Source: Promethearchaeota archaeon (GTDB lineage: Archaea; Asgardarchaeota; Lokiarchaeia; Sigyniarchaeales; SOKP01). Taken from it: 64,000 nucleotides of DNA. The notes under the pieces were generated by a model, which did no database searches, was not told the origin of the DNA, and saw nothing but the letters and a program-made list of their open reading frames with translations. The stretch is taken from contig JAHLWS010000056.1 of the NCBI GenBank assembly GCA_019057795.1, positions 17,582 to 81,581 on the forward strand, in the 5' to 3' direction. Below are positions 3,941 through 16,045 of this stretch, piece by piece. Made by a program: the position numbers and the translations under genes. Numbering within the stretch: the stretch's first letter is position 1; every line of letters begins with the position of its first letter.

Positions 3941-5941
3941 ATGAGTGAGGAAAGCAAACCGAAGAAAAAAGAAAAAATCATTGGAATCGATTTGGGAACA
4001 TCAAACAGCGCATGCGCTATTTTAAGTGGAACGGGGCAACCAGAAATAGTCCCTGCTGCCGAAGGAAGGACGTTGGGTGGCAAAGCATTTCCCTCTTATG
4101 TTGCTTTTGATGATAACGGTAGGAAAATCGTAGGTGAACCCGCAAGACGCCAAGCTGTGTCTAATCCGGAGGGGACCGTTTACGCTATTAAAAGAAAAAT
4201 GGGAACTTCATATAAAGCAAAAGTTAAAGTTGGAAGCGAATGGAAGGAGTTTTCTCCAGAGGAAATTAGTGCGATGATTTTAAAAAAGATAAAGAATGAT
4301 GCGTCTGCTTATCTCGGGGAGGAAATAAAGAAGGCAGTTATTACCGTTCCAGCTTATTTTAACGACGCCCAGAGAACATCTACTAAGAATGCCGGTGAGA
4401 TTGCTGGACTTGAAGTTGTACGTATGATAAACGAACCTACAGCAGCATGCTTAGCTTACGGCCTTGATAGAGATACAAAAGACAAACTCCTAAAAATTTG
4501 CGTTTTAGACTTAGGAGGAGGAACTTTTGATATAACTTTAATGGAATATGGCGAAGGCGTGGTTGAAGTTTTATCTACAGCAGGAGATACTCAGCTTGGT
4601 GGAACCGATATGGACAATGCTATTATAGATTGGGTCGTCGATAACTTTCAAAAGAAAGAAGGGATCAATCTTAAAGGAGACAACAAAGCCATGATAAGAA
4701 TTAAAGATGCCGCAGAAAAAGCAAAAATCGAATTATCTACTACTTTAAGTACTCAAATTAACTTGCCTTACATTACTCAGAAAGAGGGAAATCCAGTTCA
4801 TATAGAAATTGAACTTACACGGGCAAGATTGGAACAACTAATTGAACCTACTTTAAGAAGATTAGATCCTATAATTAAAAGAGCCGTAGCCGACGCTAAA
4901 ATAGGAGTTAATACAATTGATAAAGTTATTTTAGTTGGTGGTCCAACGAGAATGCCCTCTGTTCAGAAAAGATTTAAGGACTTCTTTGGCAAAGAACCAG
5001 ACCACTCAGTTGATCCTATGGAATGCGTTGCGATTGGAGCTTCGATTCAGGGAGGCATCATTGCGGGTGATGTTCAAGATCTTCTTTTATTGGATGTTAC
5101 ACCTCTTTCCTTAGGAATTGAGACTTTGGGAGGCGTGTTTACAAAGCTAATAGAGCGAAATTCAACGATTCCAACGGAAAAAAAGCAAGTATTTAGCACT
5201 GCTGCCGATAATCAACCTGGCGTCGAGGTCAATGTTTTGCAAGGAGAAAGAACAATGGCAAAAGATAATATAACATTAGGAATGTTTCACTTGACTGGAA
5301 TTCCGCCTGCTAGACGTGGAATACCTCAAATTGAAGTGAAATTCTCGATTGATGCTGATGGCATTGTTCACGTTAATGCAAAAGATTTGGGAACTGGAAA
5401 GGAAACAGGTATTACGGTTACTGGTGCCAGGGGCTTAACAGCTGAGGAGATTGCGGAAAAGATTAGATCTGCTGATCAATTTGAAGAAGAAGATAAAAAG
5501 CTAAGGGAGTTAATCGAATCAAAAAATGCTGCAGACTCTATGATCTATCAGACAAAGAAACTGATAGAAGATAATAAAGATAAGATCGAAGAGAAAGAAC
5601 AAGGCGAAATAGAAGCAGCAATGAAATCTTTAGAAGAAGATATAAAAACAGATGATCTTCCAAGAATTAAAATGGGGCTTGAAAACTTGCAAAAGTCGAT
5701 ACATGGTTTCTCTCAAAGGATATATAGCCAACAAGCTCAAGATCAAGTATATCAGCAAGCAGCAGAACAAGCACAACAAGCAGCTAGTGGAATGGGTGGC
5801 GTTCCTCCAGGCGGCATGGGTGGAGCCCCTCCAGATGGAATGAGTGGTGCCGGTGCCGGTGGAGCAGCTTATAGTAAAGACAAAGAAGATAAGAAAAAGA
5901 AGGGCAAAGTAGTCGATGTAGACTGGGATGAGGAGGATTAA
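3941..5941 (+). CDS. dnaK: chaperone DnaK (Hsp70)
   Basis: [37 protein letters not shown] motifs; GGM-rich tail. Confidence 0.99.
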
Positions 5942-13330: not shown

Positions 13331-13654
13331 CACCTGAGATATATACCCACCTTTTTGTTCTATTTCTCGTCGCCAAGAAATAGGTGGGGCATCAAACTAA
13401 GCGGCCTACCTAAAACTCGTTCCAAATACTCATCGCTTTCATTTGGCCTTGCACCAAGGTTTTAGCTCGTTCCAACCGTTCCCGATTACAATTTCTCTGG
13501 CTTAAATCCAAGTCATTAATGTACGTAAAAGGGCAGTGCCGTTTCAGTTGCTAAAATACGATTTTCACCGTAGTAGTTATCTACTCCTTGCTTGGAAAGT
13601 GAGGTGAGGTTCCTCAGCAGTTCAATGACTACCGTCAGCCCCATATTTCATGTG
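13331..13654 (-). ncRNA. rnpB: archaeal RNase P RNA
   Basis: Minus strand: GAGGAACCUCACCU and AACAAAAAGGUGGGUAU form P4 with the conserved bulged U; GGGGC/GCCCC P2; GCAACUGAAAC and GCAAGGCCAA conserved segments; P1 CACAUGAAAUAU/AUAUCUCAGGUG; P19-like hairpin CUAUUUCU/AGAAAUAG. Confidence 0.93.
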
Positions 13655-13860: not shown

Positions 13861-16045
13861 CTAGGATAGAGCAAGTAAGTTTCCAAGCAACCCAGCTCCG
13901 CCATTGAACATTAGAAGTAAACCCATGAAAATCGAAGCTGTCAACGACATCACTACTAACAGCGTGTTTATACTTGGTCCTGCGGTGTCCTTTCATCGAT
14001 AATTGGTTTTCAATACCAAAGACCTTAAATGGGTCACCGACCGTATCTCCCGTTATACTAGCTTTATGTACTTCAGTCCCTTTTCCTCCAAGGTTACCGT
14101 CCTCTATCCATTTCTTTGCGTTATCCCATGCCCCACTTATGCTTTTTGCTCGAAATAAGCTATAATCTGCATTGGACATAAACACTGCAAACACAAATCC
14201 GGATAAGATAGCTCCAGCTAAGAATGCTACTAAGGAAGCTACGCCAAAAAGAATTCCAACACCAATAGGAACAGTTATAGAAATAATGCTTGGTATAATT
14301 AACTCACGTAGTGAGCCTTTTGTTGCAATATCAATTGTTTTATGGAAATCAGCGGGTTCTTCACCAGTTAATATTTTTGGATTTTCTTCAAATTGCCTAC
14401 GAATTTCATCGACCATCTTCGCTGCGTTTCTTTGGACAGCTAAGACTAACAACGCTGAAAATAGCGCTGGGATAACAACTCCTATAAAGGCACCTACTAG
14501 AACATTGACGCTTAATAAATCCACAACAGTAATACCAGCCTCTTCTGCAAAGGAAAACATTAAAGCCATGACGGTTAAGTTCGCAGCTCCAATTGCGAAT
14601 CCCTTTGTAATTGCTTTGGCGGTGTTACCAGCAGAATCTAATTTATCAGCAGTTCTAATTACTTCATCACCTAATTCTCCTTGTTCTGCAATAGCTCTTG
14701 CATTGTCAACGATTGGGCCATACGCATCATTTGTTACTATTGTTCCTACAATTGCTAACATTCCAACAGCAGCCATTGCTACACCAAATACACCAGCTAA
14801 CCAAAATGCAATTGTCATAGCAAGTATAACTCCTATTGCAGGAGGAACTACACTTAGAAGTCCATATGAGAAACCAGAAAGAATTACAACTGCATGACCT
14901 TCTTTAGCAGCATGAGCTATGTTTTGTACTGGTTTCCTATCATCCCGAGTAAAATAATCACTCGTAAAACCTAAAACTATACCAGATATAAGTCCAATCA
15001 CTGATGTGCCCCATATTCGCCATAATAACCACATTTCATCGTCTCCTAATCCAATTGATAGGAAAATCGTTATTACAGCGGATAATGCAAAATAGATTAA
15101 AGTTGCTAAATAAGTTCCTGTGTTTAAAGCTTTTCCAGGTTCTTCAGAACCTTTATATTTTATTATGTATATTCCTATAAGCGAAGCAATTAGCCCTACG
15201 CCGCAAAAAACAACTGGAGCAACAATAAATACAGAGGTTCCTATAGTTGTTAATGTTACATTTGCGAAAGGTGCTTTAATAATACCTGCTACACCAAAGG
15301 CTGCTGCAAGCATCATTGCTGCAACAATGGATGCAACATAAGAATCGAATAGGTCACTGCCCATTCCAGCTATGTCACCAACATTATCACCTACATTATC
15401 AGCGATCGTTGCTGGATTTCTTGGATCATCTTCAGGTAGATTGTATTCAGCTTTTCCTACTAAATCAGCACCTACATCTGCTGTTTTCGTAAAAATTCCA
15501 CCGCCACACTTCATAAATAAAGCTATACTACTGGCACCGAAGCTAAACCCTAACACAACAAGAGGAGACTGAAAAATCCAATAGATTATTGATACGCCTA
15601 TTAAAGCAACTCCCACCACGGCTAAACCCATTACTGCTCCTCCAAAAAATGCTACATCGAAACCGGCTTTTGTGCCCTTGGTACAACCTTGTGCTGCTCT
15701 CGTATTTGCTTTAACACCAACATACATCCCTAACCAACCTGCGAGCATAGAACCCACACAACCAATTAAGTACGCTATCGCTTGTTCCCAATTTAATGTC
15801 CCAGGATTCGTCATATTAGGAAGTAAGAATAACATTACTAAAAAAAGTACTCCTACAAAGATTCCAAGAACTTTATATTGGACTTTTAAGTATGTTTTAG
15901 CCCCTTCTTCGATATATCCAGCGACTTCTTGCATTCTTTCGTTGCCAGGATCTTCTTTTAAAACTAAAGATCTAAAGTATACAGCAAGAACGATTGAAAT
16001 TATCCCTGCGATTAGTGCAACAATTAAAATTATTGGCACTGCCAT
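13861..16045 (-). CDS. hppA: membrane H+-translocating pyrophosphatase (K+-independent type), spliced: complement(join(13861..13991,14026..14136,14167..16045)), 706 aa
   Basis: GGGIFTKTADVGADLVGK, EDDPRN, DNVGDNVGD, GNTAKA (Lys indicates K+-independent); removing two inserts restores MSNAGGAWDNAKK and GDTVGDPFKDTAGPSIN plus a final TM helix ending at TAG 13861-13863; exon sum 2121 nt. Confidence 0.95.
13992..14025 (-). other. putative BHB mRNA intron 2 of hppA (34 nt, frame-disrupting)
   Basis: Intron AGGUCUUUGGUAUUGAAAACCAAUUAUCGAUGAA; central helix CAUU/GAUG, bulges UA^A and AA^A, exon helix CGGUG-A-CC/GG-A-CACCG, intron hairpin UUGGU/ACCAA; ligation gives UUU A|AG GAC (F-K-D). Confidence 0.88.
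14137..14166 (-). other. putative BHB mRNA intron 1 of hppA (30 nt, in frame)
   Basis: Intron AUUAUAGCUUAUUUCGAGCAAAAAGCAUAA; central helix AUGC/GCAU, bulges AG^A and AA^G, exon helix AUGUCCA/UGG(G)GCAU; ligation gives GCA G|GU GGG (A-G-G). Confidence 0.85.

What the first reader, a model, noticed from the sequence alone, without database searches (positions are those of the whole stretch)
13861..14166. Two bulge-helix-bulge mini-introns in the H+-PPase mRNA of a probable Asgard archaeon
Seen: hppA is intact except for two short insertions 111 nt apart, each inside a near-invariant catalytic motif (MSNA^GGAWDNAKK and GDPF^KDTAGP). Both fold with their exon flanks into a canonical hBHBh' motif: a 4-bp helix between two 3-nt bulges, closed by an exon-exon and an intron-intron helix. 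Cutting after the 2nd nt of each bulge gives exactly the junctions that restore the conserved protein (706 aa). Established: BHB motifs are the substrate of the archaeal splicing endonuclease EndA, with RtcB ligation, and are typical of tRNA/rRNA. In protein-coding genes the classic case is the cbf5 intron of crenarchaeotes. Inference: this lineage splices a multi-exon mRNA for a bioenergetic enzyme using tRNA-splicing machinery, and such genes would be mis-annotated as frameshifted. I cannot verify novelty without a literature and database search.
Basis: partly seen in the sequence, partly recalled or inferred. Interest (0 to 1): 0.95.

Follow-up and report, generated by a model that had tools for sequence, protein, structure and literature searches.

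The report
tRNA-type mini-introns in Asgard hppA
The only pyrophosphatase pump gene of this Loki-type Asgard archaeon is broken by two tiny inserts shaped like tRNA introns. Comparison with related strains shows that evolution has kept the reading frame that exists only after both are cut out, so the mRNA is very probably spliced by the tRNA-splicing enzymes, which papers report for only one other archaeal protein gene (cbf5).

Summary
hppA (minus strand, 16045-13861) carries a 30-nt insert (14166-14137) and a 34-nt insert (14025-13992). Removing them gives a 706-aa protein with both catalytic motifs intact.

In this allele both inserts meet a strict bulge-helix-bulge (BHB) rule exactly at the boundaries that restore the protein. 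About 1.3 in 1000 random placements do; 0 of 141 ordinary short indels did.

About 95 Asgard hppA genes, and every other species representative of the genus with a match, lack the inserts. Five distinct intron-bearing alleles exist in independent metagenomes, including a distant lineage (79% protein identity).

Main findings:
- Downstream of the frameshifting intron 2, substitutions are 8:0 synonymous:nonsynonymous in the spliced frame and 0:8 in the unspliced frame.
- The introns are more conserved than synonymous sites.
- Two base pairs of the intron-1 BHB changed on both sides and still pair.
- The genome encodes a two-subunit EndA and RtcB.

Weak points:
- No RNA evidence was obtainable.
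- Intron 1's central helix has only 3 of 4 pairs in four of five alleles, and its BHB is not the minimum-energy fold.

Verdict: EndA-type pre-mRNA introns (confidence 0.8), a new member of a kind published only for cbf5. This scan had already noted similar inserts in other genes of this genome.

The parts
14167..16045 (-). hppA exon 1 (codons 1-626 plus the first base of the Gly codon G|GT)
   Evidence: Translation and Pfam PF03030. About 95 Asgard hppA genes align with it.
14137..14166 (-). Intron 1: 30 nt, in frame, no stop codon, inside the MSNA^GGAWDNAKK motif
   Evidence: Absent from all intron-less relatives, and its boundary is unambiguous. Strict BHB at shift 0 only. Present at the same site in four other alleles.
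14132..14176 (-). BHB motif 1. Exon-exon helix 14176-14173 with 14135-14132. Central helix 14172-14169 (AUGC) with 14142-14139 (GCAU). Bulges 14168-14166 (AG|A) and 14138-14136 (AA|G). Intron hairpin 14165-14157 with 14151-14143.
   Evidence: On five alleles 93% of cells pair and two pairs changed on both sides; slid controls give 33-53%.
14026..14136 (-). hppA exon 2 (111 nt)
   Evidence: Window against L186: 12 synonymous and 1 nonsynonymous change.
13992..14025 (-). Intron 2: 34 nt, shifts the frame, inside GDPF^KDTAGP. An AAGG repeat allows five equivalent placements.
   Evidence: Identical in four alleles. Replaced by a 31-nt, sequence-divergent intron at the same site in L197/L200.
13984..14038 (-). 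BHB motif 2. Exon-exon helix 14038-14032 with 13990-13984 (one A.A mismatch). Central helix 14031-14028 (CAUU) with 13997-13994 (GAUG). Bulges 14027-14025 (UA|A) and 13993-13991 (AA|A). Intron stems 14024-14022/14000-13998 and 14019-14015/14007-14003.
   Evidence: For the divergent L197 allele the minimum-energy fold itself gives outer helix, central helix, 3' bulge and intron hairpin.
13861..13991 (-). hppA exon 3 (last 43 codons including the final transmembrane helix, with the stop codon)
   Evidence: Substitutions between intron-bearing alleles are synonymous only in the spliced frame.

Best explanation
Both inserts are archaeal bulge-helix-bulge (EndA-type) introns in a pre-mRNA.

Proposed mechanism, by analogy with tRNA and cbf5 splicing (not shown here): the hppA transcript folds locally so that each intron-exon pair forms two 3-nt bulges on opposite strands of a short central helix. 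That helix is made of 5'-exon and intron bases. It is closed by an exon-exon helix on one side and an intron hairpin on the other. The heterotetrameric (alpha-beta)2 splicing endonuclease cuts after the second base of each bulge. RtcB joins the exons and probably circularises the 30- and 34-nt introns.

Only the doubly spliced mRNA encodes an intact 706-aa membrane pyrophosphatase.

The introns are old and patchy. They occur in two distant hppA lineages. They seem to move between strains with the 3' part of the gene by homologous recombination, and they are absent from most relatives.
For: SHOWN:
1. Strict BHB exactly at the junctions that restore the protein, for both inserts. The per-placement chance is about 1.3e-3. 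Counting the five equivalent placements of intron 2, the joint chance is roughly 1e-5. None of 141 ordinary indels passes.
2. The inserts are not an assembly artefact. A Logan contig is identical. Two samples hold 99-100% of the 31-mers. An independent study holds 19 nt of intron 2 without mismatch. Four further alleles come from JGI metagenomes: L186/L187, L188, L198 and L197/L200.
3. Frame of selection. The spliced coding sequences of window and L186 are both 706 aa, with dN/dS 0.16 and dS 0.21. In exon 3 the spliced frame shows 9 synonymous: 2 nonsynonymous changes and the unspliced frame 0: 10, P = 1.5e-4. Four allele pairs give 8:0, 5:0, 8:0 and 5:0 spliced against 0:8, 0:5, 0:7 and 0:5 unspliced.
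4. The three close intron-bearing alleles in that tree share 5 strict and 6 near synapomorphies around the introns, which fits one origin.
5. The introns show 2 differences in 64 nt, where synonymous divergence predicts about 12 (P = 2.8e-4). Fisher test against local third positions gives p = 2.9e-4.
6. Covariation in intron 1 across five alleles: U-A to C-G in the central helix (an exon synonymous site paired with an intron base) and G-C to C-G in the intron stem. 93% of cells pair, against 33-53% when partners are slid.
7. The distant allele L197/L200 has introns at both sites, 30 and 31 nt, so the same frame shift. Spliced, it gives an intact ORF. Its intron 2 has a different sequence, yet its MFE fold is the BHB.
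8. Exon synonymous sites next to intron 2 (GGT, AAG, ACC) make outer-helix pairs. The intron-less close relatives aligned there (L003, L031) have GGA, AAA, ACA at these sites, which leaves 3 of 7 pairs.
9. Machinery. Two EndA paralogues are present. One is closest to the chain B sequences of the Aeropyrum (3p1z, 3ajv) and Pyrobaculum (2zyz) EndA structures; that these are the catalytic alpha subunits is from my knowledge. The other appears by eye to lack the catalytic His. RtcB is present. Asgard EndA is reported as (alpha-beta)2 with the L1 loop linked to broad specificity (PMC5829648).

INFERRED: the cleavage and ligation steps themselves.
Against: No RNA contig of this strain spans either intron, so splicing is not observed.

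Intron 1 is weaker than intron 2:
- The first central-helix pair is A-U only in the window allele and A.A or A.G in the four others.
- Its BHB is 4 kcal/mol above a competing fold.
- It is in frame and stop-free in all alleles, so it could also be read through.

On the whole-gene tree the intron-bearing alleles are not one clade. The single-origin argument therefore relies on local synapomorphies and on recombination.

Intron 2 is 34/34 identical in four alleles. Besides constraint, this could mean spread more recent than the exon divergence.
Confidence: 0.8

Rival explanations
1. Translational recoding instead of RNA splicing. Intron 1 is translated as a 10-residue insertion. Intron 2 is passed by a ribosomal hop (AAG take-off, AAG landing) or is read through and corrected by a +1 frameshift at AAA-G.
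For: Both inserts lack in-frame stop codons in both lineages. Intron 1 is 30 nt in all alleles. Intron 2 is flanked by an AAGG repeat and ends ...AUG AAA GG in both lineages. Selection on the exon-3 frame is also compatible with recoding.
Against: The intron-1 junction splits a codon (G|GT), so hopping cannot restore the invariant Gly-Gly.

Read-through would put 10-11 unrelated residues into two near-invariant catalytic motifs.

The inserted 'peptides' of intron 2 differ completely between lineages, and their lengths differ (34 against 31 nt).

Recoding does not explain the BHB geometry at both sites, the compensatory changes, or the exon synonymous sites that pair across the intron.
Confidence: 0.08
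2. Intron 2 is a spliced BHB intron, but intron 1 is an ordinary in-frame insertion, or is only partly or alternatively spliced.
For: Intron 1's central helix is 3 of 4 in four of five alleles. Its BHB is not the MFE fold in either lineage. It is in frame and stop-free.
Against: Its position inside GGAWDNAKK replaces an invariant Gly. Two pairs of its BHB covary. The only placement that restores Gly-Gly is the one the BHB rule predicts. All three nucleotide changes among the close alleles alter the hypothetical peptide, although three changes give no statistical power.
Confidence: 0.1
3. hppA is a recently broken pseudogene, or the inserts are assembly errors, and the hairpins are chance.
For: The inserts are absent from about 95 related genes and from all other species representatives of the genus. 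The window's gene is a mosaic that could in principle be a chimeric assembly.
Against: Five alleles come from independent metagenomes. dN/dS is 0.16 between intron-bearing alleles, and selection acts on the spliced frame. The introns are conserved beyond synonymous sites. The joint chance of two strict BHBs is about 1e-5.
Confidence: 0.02

Closest known systems
BHB intron in the cbf5 (pseudouridine synthase) pre-mRNA of Crenarchaeota (Watanabe 2002; Yoshinari 2006; Yokobori 2009, PMC2738675)
   Same: A protein-coding gene is interrupted by a short intron whose exon-intron boundaries form a BHB motif. Removal is attributed to the hetero-oligomeric splicing endonuclease. Distribution among relatives is patchy through gain and loss.
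   Different: The gene differs (a membrane pyrophosphatase) and so does the phylum (Asgard/Promethearchaeota). There are two introns in one gene, 111 nt apart, of 30 and 34 nt. They are polymorphic among close strains and linked to recombination of the gene's 3' end. Splicing is shown experimentally for cbf5 but only inferred here.
Non-canonical and multiple BHB introns of archaeal tRNA genes, very abundant in some Asgard archaea (PMC11291895; bioRxiv 10.64898/2026.10.13.758758)
   Same: [quoted passage not shown]
   Different: The host RNA is an mRNA with no tRNA body to help recognition, and the reading frame adds a constraint. No sequence copy of either intron exists elsewhere in the genome.
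BHB processing sites in rRNA precursors and an mRNA leader found as EndA substrates in Haloferax (PMC7714728)
   Same: EndA acts on BHB motifs outside tRNA.
   Different: Those events process ends or leaders and do not rejoin a coding frame. I took only the abstract of that paper.
Unconventional cytoplasmic splicing of HAC1/XBP1 mRNA in eukaryotes (from my knowledge; RtcB-HAC1 link cited in the reference list of PMC5829648)
   Same: This is protein-only mRNA splicing: two stem-loop cleavage sites, RtcB-type or tRNA-ligase joining, and a frame change that alters the C-terminus.
   Different: The nuclease is Ire1, not EndA/TSEN. That splicing is regulatory, and no regulation is shown here.

Membership tests
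Archaeal BHB (EndA-type) intron | [quoted passage not shown] | tested here: met
   Intron 2 has 4/4 central pairs in all five alleles. Intron 1 has 4/4 in the window allele and 3/4 (relaxed) in the four others.
Archaeal BHB (EndA-type) intron | Flanking helices h (exon-exon) and h' (intron-intron) | tested here: met
   Outer helices: 4 bp for intron 1, and 2 + 5 bp for intron 2. Intron hairpins are present. In L197 intron 2 the hairpin is set off by a 2x3 internal loop.
Archaeal BHB (EndA-type) intron | Predicted cuts give a functional mature RNA | tested here: met
   The window, L186, L197/L200 and L198 alleles, once spliced, align to the 706-aa protein without stops (692-706 residues covered) and keep both motifs.
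Archaeal BHB (EndA-type) intron | Helices supported by compensatory change | tested here: met
   Two pairs of the intron-1 BHB changed on both sides. The helices of intron 2 are invariant or not alignable, so they say nothing.
Archaeal BHB (EndA-type) intron | Splicing endonuclease and RNA ligase encoded by the organism | tested here: met
   PF01974 twice, in 200- and 201-aa ORFs. One is alpha-like by PDB matches. The other lacks the catalytic His by eye. PF01139 RtcB is present.
Archaeal BHB (EndA-type) intron | Excision at RNA level (spliced transcript, circular intron) | not testable with these tools
   The RNA runs held only short contigs of intron-less relatives. None spans the sites.
cbf5-type pre-mRNA intron (as a homologous intron family) | Located in cbf5 at the conserved crenarchaeal position | tested here: not met
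   The host gene is hppA. The resemblance is in mechanism, not homology.
Self-splicing group I / group II intron | Ribozyme core of hundreds of nucleotides | tested here: not met
   The inserts are 30 and 34 nt. Rfam finds only RNase P RNA in the window.
Translational bypass (T4 gene 60 type) | Matching take-off and landing codons that give the conserved protein | tested here: not met
   This is possible for intron 2 (AAG/AAG) but impossible for intron 1, whose junction splits the Gly codon.

The most novel reading that the evidence does not exclude
Loki-type Asgard archaea maintain an evolving population of protein-only (EndA/RtcB) mRNA introns. These are gained, lost and passed between strains by recombination, sit in the most conserved catalytic motifs, and recruit exon synonymous sites into the splice signal. 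Under this reading hppA is a two-intron, three-exon gene. Intron 1 is in frame, stop-free and has a competing fold, so it may be spliced conditionally. That would be a primitive form of regulated or alternative mRNA splicing in the closest prokaryotic relatives of eukaryotes.
Probability: 0.35. Interest if true: 0.92.

Novelty: new member of a known kind. Interest (0 to 1): 0.78.

Why it matters
In the papers I could search, splicing of a protein-coding mRNA by the archaeal tRNA-splicing machinery is documented only for cbf5 in Crenarchaeota. This is a multi-exon bioenergetic gene in an Asgard archaeon, and the evidence for splicing is evolutionary rather than only structural.

Practical consequences:
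- Such genes are called as frameshifted or as aberrant 736-740-aa proteins. Public collections hold the unspliced ORFs. Metabolic reconstructions of Asgard MAGs can therefore mis-score them.
- Exon synonymous sites are constrained by the splice motif.
- Intron presence varies between strains, which gives natural material for studying intron gain, loss and spread without a spliceosome.
- The finding gives concrete, cheap experiments (junction RT-PCR, EndA minihelix assays) on whether mRNA splicing was already routine in the archaeal relatives of eukaryotes.

Tried and rejected
1. ORF-based genome-wide scan for other frame-restoring BHB introns. True geometry gave 5094 hits against 4739-5020 for decoy geometries. 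Filters for no start codon and for coding potential did not help. The scan has no power, and it even misses hppA intron 2 because exon 3 is short.

2. Motif-free census against relative G005 (1.09 Mb fetched, about 750 kb aligned, 87% identity). It found no further G000-specific coding BHB insert. There were 83 clean indels, 6 with a strict BHB within +/-4 nt, against 0-4 for decoys. Introns shared by both genomes are invisible to this test. My strict rule also misses real-looking cases such as rpl11 intron b.

3. Sequence copies of the introns elsewhere in the genome: none, so there is no sign of a repeated mobile family.

4. RNA evidence. Logan contigs of three RNA or RNA-labelled runs and one DNA run were laid on the gene. 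There were no joints. The loose ends at 14177 in X18 (RNA) and X5 (DNA) belong to intron-less relatives with different codons, so they say nothing about splicing.

5. A search of 5.8 billion proteins with the frameshifted tail found nothing beyond the query's own cluster.

6. Plain MFE folding does not give the BHB for the window allele. My first constrained fold did not enforce the central helix and was replaced by explicit energies.

7. The exon-3 comparison with L197 is unusable beyond about 85 nt because of an indel.

8. Rejected readings: intein or group I/II intron (too short, no ribozyme), and a processed cDNA copy in L200 (the fragment is only about 81% identical to the main copy).
Full report
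**What is there.**
The window's minus strand carries one membrane pyrophosphatase gene from 16045 to 13861. It matches Pfam PF03030 (E 1e-196). Sources name its cluster relatives 'K(+)-stimulated pyrophosphate-energized sodium pump'. It is the only copy in the 4.95-Mb, 87-contig genome. Its closest public relatives are Promethearchaeota (Loki-type Asgard) MAGs.

The gene reads normally to ...FMSNA and is then interrupted by 30 nt (14166-14137). It continues for 111 nt and is interrupted again by 34 nt (14025-13992). The first insert keeps the frame. The second shifts it, so gene callers report a 736-aa protein with a nonsense tail. Deleting both gives 706 aa with MSNAGGAWDNAKK and GDPFKDTAGPSINTL restored.

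The intron-1 boundary is unambiguous. Intron 2 has five equivalent placements because of an AAGG repeat.

I coded the canonical rule: 3-nt bulges cut after the second base, a 4-bp central helix, and at least 2 bp of exon-exon and of intron-intron helix. I applied it to every placement around both inserts.
- Only the placements that restore the protein pass. Intron 1 scores H4/h4/h'2 and intron 2 scores H4/h2/h'3.
- Genome-wide the rule is met by about 1.3 in 1000 placements. With five placements for intron 2, the joint chance is about 1e-5.
- As an empirical null, none of 141 ordinary 14-120-nt indels between this genome and relative G005 has the motif at its aligned boundaries.
- Thermodynamics is less kind. 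The explicit BHB costs -5.1 against an MFE of -9.3 kcal/mol for intron 1, and -15.1 against -16.9 for intron 2. An alternative pairing of the exon AUGC with a downstream exon GCAU competes at intron 1.

**Distribution.**
About 95 Asgard hppA loci lack both inserts, including genes with 94-96% protein identity. Of the 41 other species representatives of the genus, 30 match; every complete match stops at GDPFK and lacks the ten intron-1 codons.

The inserts are nevertheless real DNA:
- A Logan contig is identical over the whole gene.
- Two samples hold 99-100% of the 31-mers.
- A run of another study holds part of intron 2 without mismatch.

The unspliced ORF's 90% cluster contains two more intron-bearing proteins. 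Their contigs are L186/L187 and L188, from three JGI metagenomes. A pattern scan of metagenome contigs added L198 and the distant pair L197/L200. That makes five distinct alleles with introns at exactly the same two sites.

**Evolutionary test of splicing.**
The spliced coding sequences of window and L186 are both 706 aa, with dS 0.21 and dN/dS 0.16.

Exon 3 lies behind the frameshifting intron. Its 11 differences are 9 synonymous and 2 nonsynonymous in the spliced frame, but 0 and 10 in the frame a ribosome would use without splicing (P = 1.5e-4). Over the first 110 nt, four allele pairs give 8:0, 5:0, 8:0 and 5:0 in the spliced frame against 0:8, 0:5, 0:7 and 0:5 in the unspliced frame. Exons 2 and 3 together give 21:3.

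The three close intron-bearing alleles in that tree (window, L186, L188) share 5 strict and 6 near synapomorphies around the introns. Several of these lie 20-55 nt from any BHB helix. The alleles therefore descend locally from one intron-bearing ancestor, and this divergence happened with the introns in place. Selection has therefore preserved the spliced product.

**Constraint on the introns themselves.**
Window and L186 differ at 2 of 64 intron positions, where synonymous divergence predicts about 12 (P = 2.8e-4). A Fisher test against local third positions gives p = 2.9e-4.

Across five alleles the intron-1 BHB keeps 93% of cells paired, against 33-53% when partners are slid. Two pairs changed on both sides:
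- U-A to C-G in the central helix, which couples a synonymous exon site (AAT/AAC) to an intron base.
- G-C to C-G in the intron stem.

The distant L197/L200 allele (79% protein identity) has a 30-nt intron 1 with about half its bases changed. Its intron 2 is 31 nt, of different sequence but with the same frame shift. Spliced, the gene is intact. For its intron 2 the MFE fold itself is the BHB.

Next to intron 2, the synonymous choices GGT, AAG and ACC complete the outer helix in the intron-bearing alleles. The intron-less close relatives aligned there (L003, L031) carry GGA, AAA and ACA, which would leave 3 of 7 pairs.

**Weak points.**
- The first pair of intron 1's central helix is Watson-Crick only in the window allele. 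The other four have A.A or A.G, so 'canonical' applies to this allele and 'relaxed' to the rest.
- Intron 1 is in frame and stop-free everywhere, so partial read-through cannot be excluded.
- Intron 2 is 34/34 identical in four alleles whose exon 2 differs at about 11% of sites. This fits strong constraint. It would also fit spread more recent than the exon divergence.
- On whole-gene trees the intron-bearing alleles are not one clade.
- The window's gene is a mosaic. Its first 1800 nt are nearly identical to intron-less Loki_b31 (2 differences in 379 nt just before the break). Its last 370 nt are about 10-13% divergent from it. Homologous recombination of the intron-bearing 3' segment is the simplest account. 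A chimeric assembly of two strains cannot be excluded, but it would not affect the introns.

**Machinery.**
The genome has two EndA paralogues of 200 and 201 aa. One is closest to the chain B sequences of the Aeropyrum and Pyrobaculum EndA structures; that these are the catalytic alpha subunits is my recollection. By eye, the other has lost the catalytic His, which fits an (alpha-beta)2 enzyme. Asgard EndA is reported to carry the L1 loop linked to broad substrate range (PMC5829648). RtcB is present.

ARAGORN finds only 18 tRNAs in a genome scored 100% complete, 10 of them with introns. This fits the heavily interrupted tRNA genes described for other Asgard archaea (PMC11291895; bioRxiv 2026.10.13.758758).

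**Context in this genome.**
Earlier notes of this scan report similar 28-33-nt inserts in at least 11 protein genes here, including rpl11. These are leads, not evidence. I checked rpl11 only partly:
- Its coding sequence is visibly in three pieces.
- The 28-nt second insert has a 4/4 central helix GCAU/AUGC, AA|A bulges, a 2-bp outer helix and a 6-bp hairpin after one mismatch.

My own genome-wide attempts had no power or found nothing new.

**Comparison and novelty.**
The mechanism proposed is the known one: BHB recognition by EndA, then ligation by RtcB. The only published protein-coding precedent I could find is cbf5 of Crenarchaeota (PMC2738675). No searchable paper reports BHB introns in Asgard protein genes.

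I therefore file this as a new member of a known kind. It has unusual features: two introns in one gene, placement in catalytic motifs, strain polymorphism, recombinational spread, and exon sites drafted into the splice signal.

Confidence that both inserts are removed from the mRNA by the tRNA-splicing pathway is 0.8. It is higher for intron 2 than for intron 1. RNA-level proof is the missing step.

Noticed in passing
window 13331-13654 (-): An archaeal RNase P RNA gene (Rfam RF00373, 123.5 bits) lies about 200 nt downstream of hppA on the same strand. It explains the very high contig depth at 13500-13590 in the RNA runs.
   Followed up: partly
window 13861-16045 (-): hppA is a mosaic. Its first 1800 nt or so are almost identical to the intron-less allele of MAG Loki_b31 (L031). 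Its last 370 nt or so, which carry both introns, are 10-13% divergent from it. This means either recombination or a chimeric strain assembly.
   Followed up: partly
whole genome G000: ARAGORN finds only 18 tRNA genes (10 with introns) in a genome scored 100% complete, and none in the 64-kb window. Most tRNA genes are probably hidden by multiple or non-canonical introns.
   Followed up: no
G000:C73:108350-109150 (-): The only rpl11 gene is in three pieces in two frames. The 28-nt second insert has a good BHB core (GCAU/AUGC, AA|A bulges). I could not fit a strict BHB to the first insert.
   Followed up: partly
L163:8905-8939, L181:8249-8279, L115:771-801 (relative G005): Relative G005 has 35-, 31- and 31-nt hairpin-bearing inserts that G000 lacks. 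The first two shift the frame inside ORFs that are 261 and 205 codons long in G000 and have near-BHB boundaries. The third has a very strong BHB (4/6/9) in a short-ORF region and may be an RNA gene.
   Followed up: no
L200:1590-1802 (-): The contig with the distant intron-bearing hppA also holds a second, partial hppA 3' fragment of 72 codons, from DNAKK to the stop. It has no intron 2 and is about 81% identical in DNA to the main copy. It sits directly behind a stop codon that ends a long ORF (over 880 codons) with a LAGLIDADG-like motif.
   Followed up: partly
L028 / L084 (G003:C128): This relative's hppA matches residues 1-41 and 222-616 with only about 100 nt between them, so about 180 codons are missing. 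It is a deletion, a pseudogene or a misassembly.
   Followed up: no
window 13992-14025 and 14137-14166; L197:627-828: Neither insert contains an in-frame stop codon in either lineage, and intron 1 is exactly 30 nt in both. This could be chance, or selection to soften the cost of unspliced transcripts.
   Followed up: no
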